From: an uncultured Myxococcales bacterium | GTDB taxonomy: Bacteria > Myxococcota_A > Polyangia > Palsa-1104 > JAEUJZ01 | Assembly (NCBI GenBank): GCA_937879845.1 | Contig: CALFML010000712.1 | Coordinates: 1-12,434 of the forward strand | DNA: 12,434 nt | Reading direction: 5' to 3' | In this document: piece after piece, positions 4,166-12,434 of the stretch | Numbering within the stretch: the stretch's first letter is position 1 | How the letters are laid out: each line of letters begins with the position of its first letter | Made by a program: the position numbers and the translations under genes | Notes under the pieces: model-generated | What the model saw: the letters and a program-made list of their open reading frames with translations, nothing else | What the model was told of the DNA's origin: nothing | The model's database searches: none

Positions 4166-6868
<2,703 letters not shown>

Positions 6869-6991
6869 AGAGTGCGCGTTCATATCGCACTTTGCCGCCC
6901 TCAGCAAGTTCCGCGGCTCGGGTTCAGCCTCGCCGGAGCGGACCGCCAGCGCATGCGGCGCGGCGACCGGCTGCCGTGGTATGGATTTGCT

Positions 6992-7666
6992 ATGACGAAG
7001 AAGTGGATTGTTTTGGGCGCCGGACTTTTACTGCTCGTCCTTGCGGGCGCCGCCGCGTCCTACATCGGGCCGCGCAACATCATCGGCATCCTGCGCTACG
7101 ACACGCGCCGCGAGGGAGAGCTCAAGCTCGGCGACGCCGCCCCCGATGTCGAGCTCGTGGCGCTTGGCGATGACACCGGCGCCGGAGCCAGTCGCATCAG
7201 GCTGCGCGAAAAGCTGCACGGGCGGCCCCTTGTGCTGATCTTCGGCAGCTTCACCTGACCCCCGTTTCGGCGCTCGGTCGAGCGCCTCCAACAGCTTTAC
7301 CGAAGCTATAAGGGCCAGGTCGATTTTTTGACCATCTACATTCGCGAGGCGCACCCGACCGACGAATGGCAGATGACCGCCAACGAGCGCGACAGCGTCT
7401 GCTACCGCCAGCCGCACAGCACCGCCGCGCGGGCGGCGATCGCGCGCGACTTCCGCGCCCGCTTCCACTACGAGCTGCCGCTAGTCGTCGACGCGATCGA
7501 AAACCCCGCCGACAAGCTCTACGCCGGCTGGCCGGAGCGCTTCTACATCCTTTCTGCAGAAGGCTCCATCGTCTATAAAGGCCAGCTCGGCCCCTTCGGC
7601 TTCCACCCCGAAGAAGTGGAAGCCTGGCTCAAAGCACACGCTCCCGCTGCGGCGCCGCCAAAATAA
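6992..7666 (+). CDS. Iodothyronine-deiodinase-like thioredoxin-fold selenoprotein (224 aa). In-frame UGA at 7256-7258 is read as selenocysteine.
   Basis: ATG at 6992 ([26 protein letters not shown], a TM helix). The frame is open to TGA at 7256-7258. It continues in the same frame through 7259-7327 with no stop, into track ORF 7328..7666 (7328-5972=1356, divisible by 3). The joined translation is ...[51 protein letters not shown]...[48 protein letters not shown] matches the deiodinase active site (FGSCTUPPF / FGSATUPPF). [12 protein letters not shown] matches the deiodinase YIEEAH.SDGW block. PERFYIL..G.IVYKG..GP....EEV matches the deiodinase C-terminal block. Stop TAA at 7664-7666. Confidence 0.8.
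7269..7286 (+). promoter_or_regulatory. Putative bacterial SECIS hairpin directing Sec insertion at UGA 7256-7258
   Basis: Perfect inverted repeat GGCGCUC / GAGCGCC (7269-7275 / 7280-7286) around a GGUC tetraloop (7276-7279). The hairpin starts 11 nt after the UGA. From memory, the minimal E. coli fdhF SECIS is a 17-nt upper stem-loop placed 11 nt downstream of the UGA, with apical loop GGUC whose G and U contact SelB. Confidence 0.6.
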
Positions 7667-7741
7667 AACCAGCCAACGCCAATCTTGTGGGCCGGCCGCT
7701 TCGCCGCTCCTTGCTGATTCGCAAGTTGCGCTTTGCCGCGG

Positions 7742-7780
7742 CGTAAAACAAAAAGGCCGGCTAGTTTCCTAGCCAGCCTT
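7742..7780 (-). terminator. Rho-independent terminator downstream of tRNA-Gly
   Basis: Hairpin aaggccggctag (7753-7764) / ctagccagcctt (7769-7780) with loop tttc and one mismatch/wobble. On the minus-strand transcript it is followed by UUUUUGUUUUA, the complement of plus 7742-7752. On the plus strand only a weak UUUC tail follows, so it is mainly a minus-strand terminator and possibly a weak bidirectional one. Confidence 0.55.
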
Positions 7781-7791
7781 TCAAAATCGAG

Positions 7792-7863
7792 AGCGGGAGA
7801 AGGGACTTGAACCCTCGACGTCCACCTTGGCAAGGTGGCACTCTACCACTGAGTTACTCCCGC
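7792..7863 (-). tRNA. tRNA-Gly (anticodon GCC), 72 nt, no encoded CCA
   Basis: Reverse complement is GCGGGAG-TA-ACTC-AGTGGTA-GAGT-G-CCACC-TTGCCAA-GGTGG-ACGTC-GAGGG-TTCAAGT-CCCTT-CTCCCGC-T. It forms a 7-bp acceptor stem, D arm, a 5-bp anticodon stem with loop uuGCCaa, a 5-nt variable loop, and a T arm with a TTCAAGT loop. It closely resembles E. coli tRNA-Gly(GCC). Confidence 0.9.
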
Positions 7864-7876
7864 GCGATGCCCTGGC

Positions 7877-7914
7877 AGTCTATCTAAGCTGCCTTGCGGG
7901 TCAAGGTTTTTTTT
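7877..7914 (-). promoter_or_regulatory. Candidate sigma70-type promoter for tRNA-Gly (-35 TTGACC, -10 TAGACT, upstream A8 tract)
   Basis: On the minus strand: AAAAAAAA-CC-TTGACC (complement of 7899-7904), a 16-nt spacer, then TAGACT (complement of 7877-7882). This lies about 13 nt upstream of the tRNA 5' end at 7863. An A-tract at 7907-7914 could act as an UP element. Prediction by eye only. Confidence 0.35.
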
Positions 7915-8001
7915 AGGGAACCGCTTGGTTAGCGCAGGACGGGGGCATTTTGGCGCGGGCCGCCAGCGCAAGGCAGGGGCCAGGCGGGGCGAAGTTACCG
8001 T

Positions 8002-9387
8002 ATGATGCGGGGTATGTTGACGCAGAGCGAGTCTCCGGGGCCCGGAGCGGAGTTTCAGACCAGCGCGGATCTTTTATCGTTCATCGAGGCTTCGCCGACC
8101 CCGTTTCATGCCGCGGCGAGCGCGGCGCAGCGGCTTATTGCCAGCGGGTTTGTCGAGCTGCGGCCCGACAGCTCCTTTTCGCAGCTGCAGCCGGGGCGGT
8201 ACTTCGTTCCGGTGGGGGATGCGACGATCGTCGCGTTCGTGCTGCCGCAGCTGGCGGCGGGGAAGCTGCGCGGCTTCCGCATCGTCGGGGCGCACACCGA
8301 CAGTCCGAACCTGCGGCTCAAGCCGCGCGCCCCGTATGAGAAGGCCGGCTATCTGCAGCTCGGGGTCGAGGTCTACGGCGGCGTGCTCCTAAACTCCTGG
8401 CTCGATCGCGATCTGCTCCTGGCCGGCCGCGTCGTGTACCGCGACAGCGAGGGGCGGCTGCGGCGCGGCCTTGTGCGGCTTGGGCAGCCGGTGGTGCGGG
8501 TGCCGCAGCTGGCGATTCATCTTGAGCGCGAAGTAAATGAAAAGGGACTTGTACTAAACCGCCAAGAACACCTGGCGCCGATCATGGGTCTTGCGGGGAG
8601 CCTGCCCGGTGGGGCGGGCGGACGGCACGGCGGACGCGATCTGGCGCTGCTCCATGGGCTGTGCGCGCAGGCGCTCGGCATCGATGAGGCGGCCGTCGTC
8701 ACCACGGAGCTCATGCTGCATGACGCGCAGCCGCCGGCGCGGGCGGGGCTTGGGCAGGAGCTTATTCTGGCGCCGCGCCTTGACAACCTGGCGATGTCGC
8801 ACGCGGCGGTGCTGGCCCTCGGGCGGGCCGCCGCGCCGACCGACCCCGACAGCGGGCTGGTTCCGCTCGTCGCGCTGTTTGACCACGAAGAGGTCGGCAG
8901 CAACAGCGCGTACGGGGCGCAGGCGCCGATCCTGCCGACCATCCTGGAGCGGCTGGTGCTGGCGACCGGTGGCGACCGCGAGCGCTACCACCAGGTGATC
9001 GCCGGCTCGCTGTGCGTCTCGGCGGACATGGCGCATGCGGCGCACCCCAACTACCTCGATCGTCACGAGGCGCACCACCGCCCGGTGCTCAACGGCGGGC
9101 CGGTGATCAAGAGCAACGCCCAGCAGCGCTACGCCACCTGTGCCCGCACCGCCGCCCTGTTCCAGGAGCTCTGCCGGCGCGTCGAGGTGCCGGTGCAGCA
9201 CTACGCGCACCGCACCGACCTGCCGTGCGGCAGCACCATCGGGCCGATCACGGCGACCCTGCTCGGCATCCCCACCGTCGACGTCGGCAATCCGATGCTC
9301 AGCATGCACTCGGCGCGCGAGCTGGCCGGCGCGGCTGACCCGGAAAACATGTCGCGCCTGCTCGCCCACTTTTTGCTTTCGCGCTAG
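8002..9387 (+). CDS. apeB: M18 family aspartyl aminopeptidase (aminopeptidase 2-like)
   Basis: 461 aa. The block IVGAHTDSPNLRLKPRAPYEKAGYLQLGVEVYGGVLLNSWLDRDLLLAGRVVY matches the M18/DNPEP signature (GAHTDSPCLRVK...VGVETYGG...WFDRDL.LAGRV). C-terminal ...PMLSMHSARE is typical of M18. Alternative start ATG at 8014 (MLTQ...). Stop TAG at 9385-9387. Confidence 0.85.
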   Translation: MMRGMLTQSESPGPGAEFQTSADLLSFIEASPTPFHAAASAAQRLIASGFVELRPDSSFSQLQPGRYFVPVGDATIVAFVLPQLAAGKLRGFRIVGAHTDSPNLRLKPRAPYEKAGYLQLGVEVYGGVLLNSWLDRDLLLAGRVVYRDSEGRLRRGLVRLGQPVVRVPQLAIHLEREVNEKGLVLNRQEHLAPIMGLAGSLPGGAGGRHGGRDLALLHGLCAQALGIDEAAVVTTELMLHDAQPPARAGLGQELILAPRLDNLAMSHAAVLALGRAAAPTDPDSGLVPLVALFDHEEVGSNSAYGAQAPILPTILERLVLATGGDRERYHQVIAGSLCVSADMAHAAHPNYLDRHEAHHRPVLNGGPVIKSNAQQRYATCARTAALFQELCRRVEVPVQHYAHRTDLPCGSTIGPITATLLGIPTVDVGNPMLSMHSARELAGAADPENMSRLLAHFLLSR

Positions 9388-9414: not shown

Positions 9415-11025
9415 TCAAAACAGCTTCGGATCGAGGCTCGGGAAGAGGTTATCGCGCGACTCGCAATCGGCGACAAACGCTTCGTCGATCGTCCCCGATT
9501 CGAGATCGCTCGCCAGCTTGGTAAAGCGCTGCAGATGCGTCTTGACCCGCGATTCGGCATACGACACCGCCGTCCCGGTCTTCATGATGAACGCCCAATC
9601 CGACGACTGCGCGAGCAGCAGCTCACGTCCGGCTTGGGTGAGCGCCCGCTGAATCAGCGCCTGCTGCGGACTTTCTTGCGGATCTTTGCTCGCAAACTTG
9701 GTCACAAGCTCGTGCAGTCTCGATTCGGCGTGGTGCAGGTGACGGTAAATCCAGTCGTTGCTCTGATCGAGCCACACCGCGGAATAGCCGCCTTCACCCC
9801 ACGACGACGGCGCCGGTTCGCAGACCGCGTTGACGGGATGATCGACAAGATAACCGCTCGCGGTCTGAAGCTGCACGACACTGCCGGGCTCGCTGCACAG
9901 CCGCAGCACTTCGCCCAGAAACATCGGCCCCTCGAACCACCAGTGGCCAAACAGCTCGGCGTCATACGGCGAAACAATCACCGGACGGCGATCCATCCGC
10001 TGCGACAGCCAGGCAATCTGCGCTTGGCGCTTTTCGACGAAGTCCCGCGCATGCTCGCGCGCTTTTGCCCGCGCCAGTTCCGGCTGATACGGCGCTTTGT
10101 CTTGCAGATCGACGCGCGCCCCCGTCACCCGGTGGTACTTGTAGCCGGTGTTGACGCGGATGCCGTCGGGATGAATGTACGGAGCGATCTGCTCAAGCGG
10201 CCTGTCAAAGCCGATGTCGCGATAAAATTCGCGATACACACCGTCGGCGGGATAGCCTTCCGTCGACGACCACACCTGCTTTGATGACATCAGGTCGCGA
10301 CCAAACGCCGCCACGCCAGCGCGGGTGAAAATCGGCGCATGCAGCCCGAGCGGCGGACGCGGTCGCGCATACGTCAGTCCGTGCGCATCCAGGAAGAAGT
10401 AGCGCAGGTCTAGCTCGGCGAGCAGCTCGTCCAGCCCGTCGACGTAGCCACACTCAGGCAGCCAGATGCCGCGCGGATAGCGACCAAAACACTCGCGGTA
10501 GTGACGGACCGCGATAATCAGCTGCGCCCGACGCGCCGACGGCTTTTGCACCACCGGCAGATAGGCATGCGTCGCACAGGTCGTAATCAGTTCGACCGTG
10601 CCGCGATCTTGAAGCTGACCAAATGCCGCGACCAAGTCACTGTCCAGCGAACGCCACAGCGCCCGCAGCTCGGTAAACCGCGACAGGTAAAAGCGCACCA
10701 GCTCCGATTGCGCGGGATCTGCTTTGGCGCGGGTCAGTTCCTCTTCCCCGAGCCGCAGCAGTCTATCGAGATAGCTGCGATAGCGGTCGGTCAAGAGCTT
10801 GTCGCGCAGCATCGAACACAGCGTCGGCGAAAGCGACAGCGTCAGCTTGGGCCCAGATGATGTCGTGCCAAACTTTTGCAGCTCTTGCACAAGCGGCAGA
10901 TACGTCGCGGTGATCGCTTCGTAGAGCCAGTTTTCTTCCAGGTGATAGGAATTTTCGGGGTGGCGCACATACGGCAGGTGCGCGTGAAGCAAAAGAAGCA
11001 GATCACCCCGAGCCGCCGCCGACAT
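9415..11025 (-). CDS. GH57 family 1,4-alpha-glucan branching enzyme-like protein
   Basis: GH57 N-terminus LLLLLHAHLPYVRHPE. Nucleophile motif GIWLPECGY. Acid/base motif SPYDAELFGHWWFEGP. The C-terminal alpha-helical region (...WGEGGYSAVWLDQSNDWIYRHLHHAE...) is characteristic of GH57 branching enzymes (TK1436/TTHA1902 type). Start is chosen at ATG 11025-11023 (MSAAARGDLLLL...). It overlaps the upstream stop by 1 nt (TGATG). The track's first ATG at 11103 would overlap the upstream gene by 78 nt and adds a non-conserved 26-aa extension. Confidence 0.8.
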   Translation of the reverse strand: MSAAARGDLLLLLHAHLPYVRHPENSYHLEENWLYEAITATYLPLVQELQKFGTTSSGPKLTLSLSPTLCSMLRDKLLTDRYRSYLDRLLRLGEEELTRAKADPAQSELVRFYLSRFTELRALWRSLDSDLVAAFGQLQDRGTVELITTCATHAYLPVVQKPSARRAQLIIAVRHYRECFGRYPRGIWLPECGYVDGLDELLAELDLRYFFLDAHGLTYARPRPPLGLHAPIFTRAGVAAFGRDLMSSKQVWSSTEGYPADGVYREFYRDIGFDRPLEQIAPYIHPDGIRVNTGYKYHRVTGARVDLQDKAPYQPELARAKAREHARDFVEKRQAQIAWLSQRMDRRPVIVSPYDAELFGHWWFEGPMFLGEVLRLCSEPGSVVQLQTASGYLVDHPVNAVCEPAPSSWGEGGYSAVWLDQSNDWIYRHLHHAESRLHELVTKFASKDPQESPQQALIQRALTQAGRELLLAQSSDWAFIMKTGTAVSYAESRVKTHLQRFTKLASDLESGTIDEAFVADCESRDNLFPSLDPKLF

Positions 11026-12434
11026 CACAGACCTCCGCTCTTGCCTGGCTGTGGTGTAAGACCACTGCTTGTCGGACTGCTCGACGGAGCATCGACGATC
11101 CATTCCGAGTCCGTCACCGGTAGCTGCCCGGACGGCGGAGAACTCCCCGTCCGCCAGGGAAGCTCACGCTCTTTGTGCGGCGTCTGGGGCCGTGACAGCA
11201 CGATATGTTCACGCTGCCTCCCGTCGCCAGAAACCGGCTGCACATGCGCCCATTCGATCGCGGTTTCCGACGATGGATGCATCGGCGGCAAGCGCACTGA
11301 CTGCGACTGTGCGATCGGCGAAAACAGACCGTCTTTCGACACAAGACCCACCGCCGCCCGCAGGTGCGCCCCGGCTTTCGGTGACTCCAGATATTTTTTG
11401 CCGTGGTGCTGGTGCAGCGAAAGATCGCGAATTTCGCGGTTTTCGCGCCCCTGCGGGAGCTGCGTCGTGATGAACACCCGCAAAATCAGACGGCCATCGC
11501 CTTCAGAAATCCCGAGCTGCGACTGCGCTTGCGCAAGCCCCGCCGCCGTCACTTCCCAGTAGATGAAGTACCAGTGCGGATCTTTGGACAGGATCTCGAC
11601 TTCGTCGCGCCCATACGTTTCGGGCAGCGCGTCATCGTGAGCCGCTCGTCGCCGCTGTTTTGGTTCAGGCGAGCTGTCGCCCTGACCACTGCCATCCTGA
11701 TGTGTAAAAACCGCCGCGGACGACGAGTGCCCGCCGTCGTGTGGTGGTCGTCCGCCTGCTTCCCTGTCTGTCCCGGAACCCATGGCAACTCCAGCTCCGT
11801 CGCGCGCCGCCAAAACGTCGCGGTCTGCAGACGGAGTCCCCCCGGTTAGCTGTCTTGTGGTGGCGATGTCTTTGTGGATCTGCGCGACCAGCTCCGCCAC
11901 CTGGGAAAACTTCTTCTCGTCACGCAGCCGGGCCACAAAGCACAATCGCAGCTCGCAGCCATACAGCGAGGGAAGCGTTTCACCCGCCGCGAGCAAAAGG
12001 TGTGCTTCGACGGAGAGTGGCGACGTTTCGACCGTACCCGGACCCTGGAACGTTGGATTATATCCAAGGTTTACCGCCGCAGGGTGTCTAGCCGCCACAG
12101 GCCGCAACACCGACGGGGACAACGGGTCAATCGGCGCCAAAATTTCCGCCCACGCCGCATAGACACCGGGCCGCAGCTTCACATCCGAATGCACGCGCAG
12201 GTTGGCTGTCGGGACATCGATGGTTCGCCCTCGCCCATGGCCATGCACCACCGTCCCTTCGACCTCGGGAGCCCGCCCAAGCAAAAGCGCCGCCCGGTCG
12301 ACATCCCCGTCGCCAAGCGCCTTGCGAATCAGCGTCGATGAACAGATCAGCGTATCGCCGCTCGCCGTCGAAACCGTGATCGCGCCAAGCTGCAGATCGG
12401 AAGAGCACACGTCTGAACTCCAGTCACGCCAATG
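11025..12434 (-). CDS. ribF: Bifunctional riboflavin kinase/FMN adenylyltransferase (RibF), 5' end off-window, fused in-frame to a ~275-aa C-terminal extension containing a DUF4912-like domain
   Basis: The frame is open to the window edge; the track's start at 12410 is a GTG. The N-terminal part matches the RibF FAD-synthetase C-terminus (ICSSTLIRKALGDGDVDRAALLLGR, compare E. coli ISSTAVRQALADDNLALAESLLG). It also matches the riboflavin kinase domain (VVHGHGRGRTIDVPTANL...GVYA...NLGYNPTF...VEAHLLL...LYG.ELRLCFVARLRDEKKFSQVAELVAQIHKDIATTRQL). Where E. coli RibF ends, this ORF instead continues with no stop. A G/S/D/P-rich linker (residues ~186-267) is followed by KDPHWYFIYWEV...GRLILRVFITTQ...REIRDLSLHQHHGKKYLESPKAGAHLRAAVGLVSKDGLFSPIAQSQSVRLPP (nt ~11280-11609). 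As I recall, this resembles Pfam DUF4912, a family often encoded next to GH57 genes. Stop TGA at 11027-11025. Confidence 0.7.
   Translation of the reverse strand, partial: HWRDWSSDVCSSDLQLGAITVSTASGDTLICSSTLIRKALGDGDVDRAALLLGRAPEVEGTVVHGHGRGRTIDVPTANLRVHSDVKLRPGVYAAWAEILAPIDPLSPSVLRPVAARHPAAVNLGYNPTFQGPGTVETSPLSVEAHLLLAAGETLPSLYGCELRLCFVARLRDEKKFSQVAELVAQIHKDIATTRQLTGGTPSADRDVLAARDGAGVAMGSGTDREAGGRPPHDGGHSSSAAVFTHQDGSGQGDSSPEPKQRRRAAHDDALPETYGRDEVEILSKDPHWYFIYWEVTAAGLAQAQSQLGISEGDGRLILRVFITTQLPQGRENREIRDLSLHQHHGKKYLESPKAGAHLRAAVGLVSKDGLFSPIAQSQSVRLPPMHPSSETAIEWAHVQPVSGDGRQREHIVLSRPQTPHKERELPWRTGSSPPSGQLPVTDSEWIVDAPSSSPTSSGLTPQPGKSGGL

What the first reader, a model, noticed from the sequence alone, without database searches (positions are those of the whole stretch)
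6992..7666. UGA-recoded iodothyronine-deiodinase-like selenoprotein hidden as two separate ORFs
Standard ORF calling ends one ORF at TGA 7256-7258 and starts an unrelated 112-aa ORF at 7328. The two are in the same frame and the 69 nt between them has no stop. The TGA sits exactly where deiodinases carry selenocysteine: FGSFT-[TGA]-PPF. The downstream deiodinase blocks follow: [12 protein letters not shown], and [36 protein letters not shown]. The resulting 224-aa protein has an N-terminal TM anchor like eukaryotic deiodinases. Deiodinase-like thioredoxin-fold selenoproteins are known from bacterial selenoproteome surveys. They are routinely mis-annotated, and their substrate in bacteria is unknown; proposed functions are reductive dehalogenation and peroxiredoxin-like redox activity. 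The only tRNA in the window is tRNA-Gly, not tRNA-Sec, so the Sec machinery must be encoded elsewhere.
Basis: partly seen in the sequence, partly recalled or inferred. Interest (0 to 1): 0.85.

Follow-up and report, generated by a model that had tools for sequence, protein, structure and literature searches.

The report
Bacterial deiodinase-like selenoprotein gene, mis-split
A single gene for a membrane-anchored relative of thyroid-hormone deiodinases is interrupted by a UGA that almost certainly encodes selenocysteine; the reading is correct, but this bacterial selenoprotein family has been known since 2005 and its function is still unknown.

Summary
Window 6992-7666 (+) is one reading frame of 224 codons with a single in-frame TGA (7256-7258) in FGSFT-U-PPF. 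Pfam T4_deiodinase matches across the TGA (125 bits). Mouse Dio3 and Dio2 are the best solved relatives.

The evidence for selenocysteine decoding is strong:
- All 83 copies examined, from Polyangia, Acidobacteriota, Planctomycetota and Eisenbacteria, keep TGA at this codon.
- Four full-length homologues carry Cys there.
- The half upstream of the TGA is conserved.
- A 6-7 bp hairpin with a GGUC loop (7269-7286) starts 10 nt after the UGA. It shows compensatory base changes and frozen synonymous sites, and the Cys forms lack it.
- TGA is a normal stop for three neighbouring genes.

The Sec machinery could not be checked, because only 12 kb of this genome is available.

The protein keeps the deiodinase catalytic core. 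It lacks Dio3 His219, Arg275 and both Dio cysteines, and it has its own invariant Cys137. Thyroid hormone is therefore an unlikely substrate.

The family (the deiodinase-like selenoprotein of the Sargasso Sea and GOS surveys) is already known. This is a new, unannotated member from a Polyangia bacterium. Interest is moderate to low.

The parts
6992..7666 (+). Complete coding sequence of the deiodinase-like selenoprotein: 224 residues including Sec89, with stop codon TAA at 7664-7666.
   Evidence: Single frame with one internal TGA. Pfam PF00837 scores 125 bits over residues 43-214. Dio3 4TR3 E=5e-24 and Dio2 9H48 E=3e-21. The start at 6992 matches the MTKK start of L003 and L004.
7004..7066 (+). 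N-terminal hydrophobic segment (about residues 5-25, after Lys3-Lys4): a signal anchor or transmembrane helix, followed by the invariant motif GPRN.
   Evidence: The best 19-residue Kyte-Doolittle mean is 2.2. A comparable segment (>1.6) lies before GPRN in 77 of 79 relatives, and no AxA cleavage motif is conserved. The AF2 model of homologue P0001 has a helix at residues 3-27. Which side of the membrane the catalytic domain faces is unresolved.
7256..7258 (+). In-frame TGA, the predicted selenocysteine codon (Sec89), in the motif G-S-F-T-U-P-P-F.
   Evidence: TGA is present in 83 of 83 loci. Full-length homologues P0001-3 and P0119 have Cys at this column. It aligns with Sec170 of mouse Dio3.
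7269..7286 (+). SECIS-type hairpin inside the coding sequence: GGCGCUC-GGUC-GAGCGCC. The loop GGUC is at 7276-7279, and the stem begins 10 nt after the UGA.
   Evidence: RNAalifold finds the same 6-bp helix on 83 sequences. Three pairs show compensatory changes; the covariation score is 0.128 against 0.043 in shuffles, with 0 of 500 shuffles reaching it. Synonymous sites in the hairpin codons are frozen. The Cys-form homologues lack the hairpin. Its position matches the E. coli fdhF minimal SECIS at nt 15-31, 11 nt from the UGA, with G23/U24 in the loop (PMC8659212).
7337..7369 (+). Y116-I-R-E119-A-H121-P-T-D-E-W126: the deiodinase 'YIEEAHPSDGW' block, containing the equivalents of Dio3 Tyr197, Glu200, His202 and Trp207.
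   Evidence: Y116, E119, A120, H121, P122, D124 and W126 are invariant in 82 distinct Sec-form proteins. The roles of the Dio3 residues are taken from PMC7506546 and PMC11592359.
7400..7402 (+). Codon for Cys137, an invariant clade-specific cysteine in the omega-loop region (aligns with Dio3 Val215). It is a candidate resolving cysteine.
   Evidence: Cys is present in 82 of 82 distinct Sec-form proteins, and it is the only conserved Cys besides the Sec position. It is absent from Cys forms P0001-3. The proposed role is inferred.

Best explanation
Window 6992-7666 is one functional gene of a Polyangia (Myxococcota) bacterium. It encodes a 224-residue, N-terminally membrane-anchored member of the iodothyronine-deiodinase family in which UGA 7256-7258 is decoded as selenocysteine.

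How the recoding works is inferred from sequence and covariation. The hairpin GGCGCUC-GGUC-GAGCGCC, 10 nt downstream of the UGA, acts as a bacterial SECIS. SelB carrying Sec-tRNA(Sec) binds its GGUC loop while the UGA sits in the ribosomal A site. Sec89 is therefore inserted instead of translation terminating.

How the enzyme works is inferred by homology to Dio3 and Dio2. Sec89 sits at the start of helix alpha-1 of a thioredoxin/peroxiredoxin-like fold. The conserved Ser86/Thr88/Tyr116/Glu119/His121 hydrogen-bond network tunes it. It attacks an electrophilic atom of a small substrate. The oxidised selenium (Se-X or Se-OH) is then resolved, probably by the invariant Cys137, to a selenenylsulfide that an external thiol reductant reduces.

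The substrate is not thyroid hormone, because His219 and Arg275 of Dio3 are replaced. My preferred guess, at about 0.4, is deiodinase-type reductive dehalogenation of a halogenated aromatic compound. The main alternative, at about 0.35, is peroxide or disulfide reduction.
For: Shown:
- One frame with a single TGA.
- PF00837 at 125 bits spanning the TGA.
- Homology to the Dio3 and Dio2 structures. The model of the Cys homologue matches Dio2 and Dio3 best, with TM-scores of 0.81 and 0.78 normalised to the target.
- TGA in 83 of 83 loci from at least four phyla, and Cys at that column in four full-length homologues.
- 18 positions at least 97% conserved upstream of the TGA.
- A hairpin predicted independently by RNAalifold, with three covarying pairs.
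- Frozen codon choice inside the hairpin: Ser TCG in 73 of 73 against a 31% background, and Val GTC in 80 of 81 against 66%.
- No hairpin in the Cys forms.
- TGA used as a normal stop by three neighbouring genes.
- The catalytic core S86, T88, U89, P90, P91, F92, Y116, E119, H121, W126, Q140, R147, E182 and R183 is invariant.

Established knowledge: the features of bacterial SECIS elements and the residue roles in Dio3.
Against: No selA, selB, selC or selD lies in the window or in 940 kb of relatives' flanks, and the rest of the genome is not available. The hairpin is short, has no bulged U as in E. coli fdhF, and matches no Rfam family. There is no experimental evidence of selenium incorporation. 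The function is unproven. His219, part of the proposed Dio proton relay, is an invariant Pro. Cys-form relatives P0001-3 lack Cys137, so a resolving role for it is not universal in the family. Membrane topology is ambiguous, because positive charges lie on both sides of the hydrophobic segment.
Confidence: 0.87

Rival explanations
1. Pseudogene or true stop. The TGA terminates translation, and the gene is decaying or yields only an 88-residue membrane peptide.
For: Gene callers treat it this way. About 115 of the 120 best database hits are C-terminal fragments of about 124 aa. No Sec machinery is visible in the window.
Against: The TGA is kept in 83 of 83 loci across phyla, with both halves under strong conservation and no other frame disruption. 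The stop would cut the thioredoxin fold at its active site. The Cys homologues are continuous. A covarying hairpin follows the TGA.
Confidence: 0.02
2. Two separate polypeptides. Translation terminates at the UGA and restarts downstream (TTG 7328 in the window, Met in relatives), so the two halves are made separately.
For: Many relatives have an in-frame Met about 13 codons after the TGA, which gene callers use as a start.
Against: That Met is present in only 41 of 81 sequences and is Leu in the window. The window's only candidate start, TTG 7328, lies inside the conserved [11 protein letters not shown] strand and has no purine-rich ribosome-binding sequence upstream. The 23 codons between the TGA and 7328 ([10 protein letters not shown]...) are conserved as protein.
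Confidence: 0.03
3. The UGA is read through as a standard amino acid (Cys, Trp or Gly), either by a suppressor or near-cognate tRNA or because UGA is reassigned genome-wide, and not as selenocysteine.
For: The Sec machinery has not been demonstrated for this genome. Cys works at this position in related proteins.
Against: TGA is a normal stop for the GH113, GH57 and RibF-like genes in the same window, and GC content is 67%. If Cys were wanted, TGC/TGT would appear among 83 diverse sequences, yet none does. The conserved hairpin at SECIS distance with a GGUC loop has no explanation under plain read-through.
Confidence: 0.04
4. Functional rival (the gene is still a selenoprotein). It is a peroxiredoxin- or TlpA/ResA-like peroxidase or thiol-selenol oxidoreductase, and not a dehalogenase.
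For: There are weak sub-threshold Pfam hits to Thioredoxin_8, AhpC-TSA and Redoxin. After Dio2 and Dio3, the next fold matches are ResA/TlpA-type thiol-disulfide oxidoreductases and 1-Cys peroxiredoxins. The literature suggests only 'a redox function'. His219 of the Dio proton relay is lost.
Against: All Prx/Redoxin scores are below their gathering cut-offs, while PF00837 is far above its own. The deiodinase-specific insertion and its invariant residues (AHPxDxW, Gln218 and Arg225 equivalents) are retained. Exclusive Sec use in 83 of 83 fits chemistry where selenium is hard to replace.
Confidence: 0.35

Closest known systems
Bacterial 'deiodinase-like protein' selenoprotein family (PF00837), described in the Sargasso Sea selenoproteome (Zhang, Fomenko & Gladyshev 2005, PMC1088965), the GOS survey (PMC2398784) and reviews (PMC9312934, PMC13188914)
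   Same: A bacterial PF00837 protein with an in-frame UGA at the deiodinase Sec position, Cys-containing homologues, and a bacterial SECIS hairpin with a G in a small apical loop directly downstream. Its function is unknown.
   Different: The earlier examples were a few marine metagenome reads (4 Sec sequences in the Sargasso Sea, 22 in GOS). This clade occurs in MAGs labelled Polyangia, Acidobacteriota/Thermoanaerobaculia and Planctomycetota, and 535 GTDB species representatives encode a relative of the protein. Two reviews give the family's redox motif as UxxC, whereas this clade has U-P-P-F with no Cys at +3.
Animal iodothyronine deiodinases Dio1-3 (structures 4TR3 and 9H48)
   Same: An N-terminal membrane anchor followed by a Trx/Prx-like catalytic domain with the Dio-specific insertion. 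The FGS-x-T-U-PPF active site is shared. The equivalents of Tyr197, Glu200, His202, Trp207, Gln218, Arg225, Glu259 and Arg260 are invariant.
   Different: The SECIS is a short hairpin inside the coding region, not a 3'-UTR kink-turn element. Dio3 His219 is an invariant Pro. Arg275 is Pro, Thr or Leu. The proximal Cys168 is Phe or Tyr, and the distal Cys239 is aliphatic. The omega-loop is 3 residues longer and carries a new invariant Cys137. Thyroid hormones are not expected in bacteria.
E. coli fdhF SECIS, the prototype bacterial Sec insertion element
   Same: A hairpin within the coding sequence about 11 nt after the UGA, occupying roughly nt 15-31, with G and U in a small apical loop as the SelB contact. 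Here the stem and loop occupy nt 14-31, with GU at nt 22-23.
   Different: The stem is a perfect 6-7 bp helix without the bulged U17. No extended lower stem is conserved. SelB binding has not been tested.
NCBIfam NF038285 'deiodinase family protein' (347-aa profile)
   Same: It shares the deiodinase domain: 186 bits, aligned to profile positions 177-338.
   Different: The score is below the 250-bit cut-off. The window protein lacks the roughly 176-residue N-terminal part of that profile and has a single transmembrane segment instead.

Membership tests
Bacterial selenoprotein gene (UGA decoded as Sec) | In-frame UGA aligned with Cys in homologues | tested here: met
   P0001, P0002, P0003 and P0119 read FGSFTCPPFR at the TGA column. 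Their codons are TGT or TGC.
Bacterial selenoprotein gene (UGA decoded as Sec) | Protein-level conservation on both sides of the UGA, and the UGA itself conserved among orthologues | tested here: met
   TGA in 83 of 83 loci. There are 18 positions at least 97% conserved upstream of the TGA and about 50 downstream, across 82 distinct proteins.
Bacterial selenoprotein gene (UGA decoded as Sec) | Bacterial SECIS: a stem-loop directly downstream of the UGA with a small apical loop containing G | tested here: met
   A 6-7 bp stem with a GGUC loop, 10-11 nt after the UGA. RNAalifold recovers it, three pairs covary, and 0 of 500 shuffles reach the covariation score. Synonymous sites are frozen.
Bacterial selenoprotein gene (UGA decoded as Sec) | Genome encodes selA, selB, selC (tRNA-Sec) and selD | not testable with these tools
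   None lies in the 12.4-kb window, and no tRNA-Sec lies in 940 kb of related flanks.
Bacterial selenoprotein gene (UGA decoded as Sec) | Selenium physically incorporated (75Se labelling or mass spectrometry) | not testable with these tools
   This needs an experiment.
Iodothyronine deiodinase family (Pfam PF00837) | Profile match above the gathering threshold | tested here: met
   125.1 bits against a cut-off of 27, over residues 43-214.
Iodothyronine deiodinase family (Pfam PF00837) | Trx/Prx-like fold with the Dio-specific insertion, closest to the Dio structures | tested here: met
   Sequence matches to 4TR3 and 9H48. The AF2 model of the 52%-identical Cys homologue P0001 (pLDDT 83) has Dio2 and Dio3 as its top hits, with TM 0.81 and 0.78. 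The window protein itself could not be submitted because of the stop codon.
Iodothyronine deiodinase family (Pfam PF00837) | Catalytic S-x-T-U motif plus the Tyr197/Glu200/His202/Trp207 network | tested here: met
   S86, T88, U89, Y116, E119, H121 and W126 are invariant in 82 proteins.
Thyroid-hormone deiodinase in the functional sense (acts on iodothyronines) | Thyronine-binding and relay residues His219 and Arg275 (or Lys), plus the proximal and distal Cys used for regeneration | tested here: not met
   His219 is an invariant Pro141. Arg275 is Pro, Thr or Leu at position 199. Cys168 is Phe or Tyr at position 87. Cys239 is Ile, Val or Leu at position 162.
Thyroid-hormone deiodinase in the functional sense (acts on iodothyronines) | Measured deiodination activity | not testable with these tools
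   No biochemical study of a bacterial member was found in the paper library.
Peroxiredoxin / Redoxin (PF00578, PF08534) | Profile match above the gathering threshold | tested here: not met
   AhpC-TSA scores 22.5 against a cut-off of 26, and Redoxin scores 19.5 against 26.6.
NCBIfam NF038285 deiodinase_rel | Full-length match above the curated cut-off | tested here: not met
   186 bits against a cut-off of 250, and only profile positions 177-338 of 347 are matched.

The most novel reading that the evidence does not exclude
This compact clade is always Sec-containing and membrane-anchored, with an invariant Cys137. It is found in MAGs labelled Acidobacteriota, Polyangia and Planctomycetota, within a family detected in 535 species representatives. 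It could be a selenium-dependent, cobalamin-independent reductive dehalogenase (deiodinase or debrominase) acting on natural organohalogens. That would be the ancestral chemistry from which animal thyroid-hormone deiodinases were recruited. The near-identical SECIS hairpin shared across phyla would then mark a horizontally mobile selenoenzyme module.
Probability: 0.3. Interest if true: 0.8.

Novelty: new member of a known kind. Interest (0 to 1): 0.35.

Why it matters
For annotation, this is a clean example of a real gene that standard pipelines split or truncate. About 115 of the 120 closest database entries are C-terminal fragments, and no NCBIfam model covers this architecture. The TGA-plus-hairpin signature could be used to repair hundreds of gene models.

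For biology, the function of bacterial deiodinase homologues has been open since 2005. This analysis gives concrete handles for testing it. The clade uses Sec exclusively. The residue map shows which Dio features are kept and which are lost. Cys137 is a candidate resolving cysteine. One carrier, Polyangium sp. 6x1 (L078), has a non-MAG genome record, so selenium labelling, knock-outs and enzyme assays may be possible in culture.

If the enzyme proved to be a dehalogenase, it would link selenium use to halogen cycling in the environment and to the evolutionary origin of thyroid-hormone metabolism.

Tried and rejected
- **Rfam.** A scan of the whole window at E<=10 gave only tRNA-Gly and chance hits, and no SECIS family match. 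The hairpin is too short for those models, so I used covariation on 83 sequences instead.
- **Structure prediction of the window protein.** I modelled the 52%-identical Cys homologue P0001 instead.
- **tRNA-Sec near the gene.** An ARAGORN scan of 940 kb of flanks from 86 records found none.
- **Extending the window.** Exact look-ups of the M18 peptidase and the Band7 protein found nothing on record.
- **Conserved operon partners.** The window's own context (gyrA, tRNA-Gly, M18 peptidase) is lineage synteny only. An FmdA/AmdA amidase recurs in 36 of 83 loci, but opposite-strand genes intervene, so I did not use it as functional evidence.
- **Genome-wide UGA reassignment.** Rejected, because three neighbouring genes stop at TGA.
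- **Cleavable signal peptide versus anchor.** The window has AAA-S, but relatives show no conserved AxA motif. I favour an anchor, and topology stays open.
- **Biochemical literature.** A search for any characterisation of bacterial deiodinase homologues found none.
Full report
**1. The observation**

The sequence is as described. The mechanical ORF list has an ORF ending at TGA 7256-7258 and a 112-aa TTG ORF starting at 7328 in the same frame. Translating 6992-7669 gives one open frame with a single internal stop: [29 protein letters not shown]...[48 protein letters not shown]...[36 protein letters not shown]..., ending at TAA 7664-7666. That is 224 residues with the TGA as residue 89. The only tRNA gene in the window is tRNA-Gly(GCC) at 7791-7863 on the minus strand. 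An alternative in-frame ATG lies at 6953, but the two closest homologues begin MTKK, which supports 6992.

**2. One gene of the deiodinase family**

With Cys in place of the stop, Pfam T4_deiodinase (PF00837) matches at 125 bits (cut-off 27) over residues 43-214, across the TGA. Thioredoxin_8, AhpC-TSA and Redoxin all fall below their cut-offs. Among solved structures, only mouse Dio3 (4TR3, E=4.9e-24) and Dio2 (9H48, E=2.8e-21) match well. The window protein itself could not be submitted for structure prediction. An AlphaFold model of the closest full-length Cys homologue, P0001 (52% identical, mean pLDDT 83), has Dio2 and Dio3 as its top fold matches, with TM 0.81 and 0.78. ResA/TlpA-type oxidoreductases and 1-Cys peroxiredoxins follow.

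**3. Is the TGA a selenocysteine codon?**

- **Cys homologues.** Four full-length homologues read FGSFTCPPFR at this column, encoded by TGT or TGC.
- **Truncated database entries.** About 115 of the 120 best database hits are C-terminal fragments of about 124 aa. This is what gene callers produce when a conserved UGA interrupts a gene.
- **Conservation of the TGA.** I fetched the DNA for 82 related loci. Two came from metagenome contigs. Eighty came from a scan of one genome per species, in which 535 species representatives encode a relative. All 83 sequences, counting the window, have TGA at this codon in G-S-(F/Y)-T-U-P-P-F, and none has a Cys codon. The organisms are labelled Polyangia/Myxococcales, Thermoanaerobaculia/Acidobacteriota, Holophagales, Planctomycetota and Eisenbacteria.
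- **Upstream half is translated.** Eighteen positions between G26 and T88 are at least 97% conserved in 82 distinct proteins, so the upstream half is read in this frame.
- **Standard genetic code.** TGA is the ordinary stop of three neighbouring genes with intact Pfam matches (GH113, GH57 and the RibF-like gene), and the window is 67% GC. UGA is therefore not reassigned genome-wide.

**4. The SECIS-type hairpin**

Ten nucleotides after the UGA lies GGCGCUC-GGUC-GAGCGCC (7269-7286, loop 7276-7279). The 81-nt stretch around it folds better than shuffled versions (z = -3.4).

On the alignment of 83 sequences, RNAalifold independently predicts the 6-bp core with the GGUC loop. For the named structure, 86% of cells pair. 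Three pairs show changes on both sides: G-C to C-G at the outer pair through two synonymous Arg third positions, C-G to G-C, and U-A to G-C. The covariation score is 0.128 against 0.043 in shuffles, with 0 of 500 shuffles reaching it, and it exceeds every slid control.

The element lies in coding sequence, so I checked codon choice. Within the hairpin, Ser is TCG in 73 of 73 (31% elsewhere in the same genes). Val is GTC in 80 of 81 (66% elsewhere). Arg is CGC in 79 of 81 (53%). Glu is GAG in 63 of 63 (75%). The two Pro codons just before the hairpin vary freely at the third position. The sequences are related, so these are not true probabilities, but the effect is large and confined to the hairpin.

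The Cys-form homologues have a different peptide here (RRNTGD or RHTATD) and no corresponding hairpin.

The position and loop match the published description of the E. coli fdhF minimal SECIS: a 17-nt stem-loop at nt 15-31, 11 nt from the UGA, with G23/U24 in the apical loop as SelB contacts (PMC8659212). They also match the general criterion of a small apical loop containing G (PMC1088965). Here the hairpin occupies nt 14-31, with GU at nt 22-23. It differs in having no bulged U. No Rfam family matches it.

**5. What could not be tested**

The window contains no selA, selB, selD or tRNA-Sec. No tRNA-Sec lies in the 940 kb of flanks held. The window's own contig is not on record. The presence of the Sec machinery in this genome is therefore inferred, not shown.

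**6. Source organism and genomic context**

The window is collinear with L003, a Polyangia MAG, in the order Band7, GH113, CDP-alcohol phosphatidyltransferase, gyrA (divergent), the deiodinase-like gene, then M18 aminopeptidase. GyrA is 94% identical. It is also collinear with L001 and L004. The source is therefore a Polyangia (Myxococcota) bacterium. The gene stands alone between the divergent gyrA and a convergent tRNA-Gly, so the context gives no functional clue.

**7. Anatomy of the protein compared with Dio3**

Residue roles are taken from PMC7506546 and PMC11592359. The mapping uses the alignment and conservation in 82 distinct Sec forms.

- **Kept and invariant:** Ser167, Thr169, Sec170, Pro171, Pro172, Phe173, Tyr197, Glu200, Ala201, His202, Pro203, Asp205, Trp207, Gln218, Arg225, Glu259, Arg260, Gly276 and Pro277. 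In the window these are S86, T88, U89, P90-F92, Y116, E119-P122, D124, W126, Q140, R147, E182, R183, G200 and P201.
- **Lost:** His219 is an invariant Pro141. Arg275 is Pro, Thr or Leu. The proximal Cys168 is Phe or Tyr. The distal Cys239 is Ile, Val or Leu.
- **Gained:** The omega-loop is three residues longer. Cys137, which aligns with Dio3 Val215 at the loop's constriction point, is invariant in all 82 Sec forms. It is absent from Cys forms P0001-3, which have no other cysteine.
- **N-terminus:** Lys-Lys, then about 20 hydrophobic residues, then an invariant GPRN. A comparable hydrophobic segment is present in 77 of 79 relatives, with no conserved AxA motif. A membrane anchor is therefore more likely than a cleaved signal peptide. 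Positive charges on both flanks leave the orientation open.

**8. Mechanism**

The recoding step, in which SelB binds the GGUC hairpin and Sec89 is inserted, is well supported by sequence evidence.

The catalytic cycle is inferred by homology. The Sec89 selenolate, tuned by the conserved Ser/Thr/Tyr/Glu/His network, attacks an electrophilic substrate atom. The oxidised selenium is captured by Cys137 as a selenenylsulfide, which an external thiol then reduces.

Thyroid hormone is an unlikely substrate, because the residues proposed to hold it are gone and the hormone is not expected in bacteria.

I rate deiodinase-type reductive dehalogenation of some halogenated aromatic at about 0.4. The reasons are that the deiodinase-specific insertion is retained and Sec use is exclusive. 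I rate peroxide or disulfide reduction at about 0.35, and something else at the remainder.

**9. Comparison with what is known**

Deiodinase-like Sec and Cys proteins with bacterial SECIS elements were reported from the Sargasso Sea in 2005 (4 Sec sequences), with the comment that they probably serve a redox function other than hormone deiodination (PMC1088965). The GOS survey counted 22 Sec and 21 Cys sequences (PMC2398784). The 2022 and 2026 reviews still list the family as one of unknown function. I found no biochemical study.

NCBIfam has only NF038285, a 347-aa architecture. The window protein matches it below the cut-off and only over its C-terminal half.

A search of 1.84 billion cluster representatives finds 2,767 relatives at E<=1e-3 and 838 at E<=1e-10. 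These include fragments, forms of about 220 aa and long fusions. Only 2 representatives reach E<=1e-30, so this clade is compact.

**10. Verdict**

This is a genuine selenoprotein gene that is routinely mis-annotated. It is a new member of a family known for about twenty years, so it is not a surprise to specialists.

What this analysis adds:
- Sec use is exclusive in the clade.
- The SECIS hairpin is nearly invariant yet covarying, and is shared across phyla.
- The residue map shows loss of the thyronine-binding residues and gain of Cys137.
- The family was detected in 535 species representatives, including one non-MAG genome record (Polyangium sp. 6x1).

Noticed in passing
L056 about 4927-5973 (+); L013 about 7270-8261 (+); 36 of 83 loci (offsets): A secreted acetamidase/formamidase-family gene (Pfam FmdA_AmdA) lies on the same strand within about 4 kb of the deiodinase-like gene in 36 of 83 loci, either upstream or downstream. 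It is absent from the window's Polyangia lineage. Opposite-strand genes often intervene, for example a DUF2127-like membrane protein in L013, so it may be lineage synteny and not an operon.
   Followed up: partly
window 7751-7904 (-): tRNA-Gly(GCC) at 7791-7863 (-) is convergent with the selenoprotein gene. A sigma-70-like promoter match lies at 7904-7877 and a 14-bp terminator-like hairpin at 7782-7751.
   Followed up: no
window 11025-12410 (-) and 9415-11103 (-): The ORF at 11025-12410 combines a riboflavin-kinase (Flavokinase) domain with DUF4912. It overlaps by 79 nt the start of the downstream GH57/branching-enzyme-like ORF. The true gene boundaries and this domain combination were not examined.
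   Followed up: no
window 6953-6991 (+): An alternative in-frame ATG lies 13 codons upstream of the chosen start. It would add [13 protein letters not shown] before MTKK. The nearest homologues start at MTKK.
   Followed up: partly
literature versus window 7256-7267: Two reviews list the redox motif of the bacterial deiodinase-like family as UxxC, and the GOS paper lists none. This clade is U-P-P-F with no Cys at +3 in any of 82 proteins. Either another subfamily exists or the table entries are loose.
   Followed up: partly
L083 160-753 (+), next to the Cys-form homologue at 795-1487: The closest Cys-containing homologue, P0001, sits directly downstream of a gene with a weak CMD (carboxymuconolactone decarboxylase / AhpD-like) hit. 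AhpD-like proteins are themselves a redox and selenoprotein family.
   Followed up: no
one search hit list (e.g. P0134, P0141, P0157, P0168, P0231): Many distant family members are 400-900-aa proteins in which the deiodinase domain is a C-terminal or internal module. NCBIfam NF038285 models a 347-aa form. The partner domains were not identified.
   Followed up: no
L003-L082, alignment A2 columns 22-40: The hairpin sequence CGGCGCUCGGUCGAGCGC is almost identical in MAGs labelled Acidobacteriota, Polyangia, Planctomycetota and Eisenbacteria. This could reflect strong SelB-binding constraint, horizontal transfer of the gene, or MAG mis-binning. No phylogeny was made.
   Followed up: no
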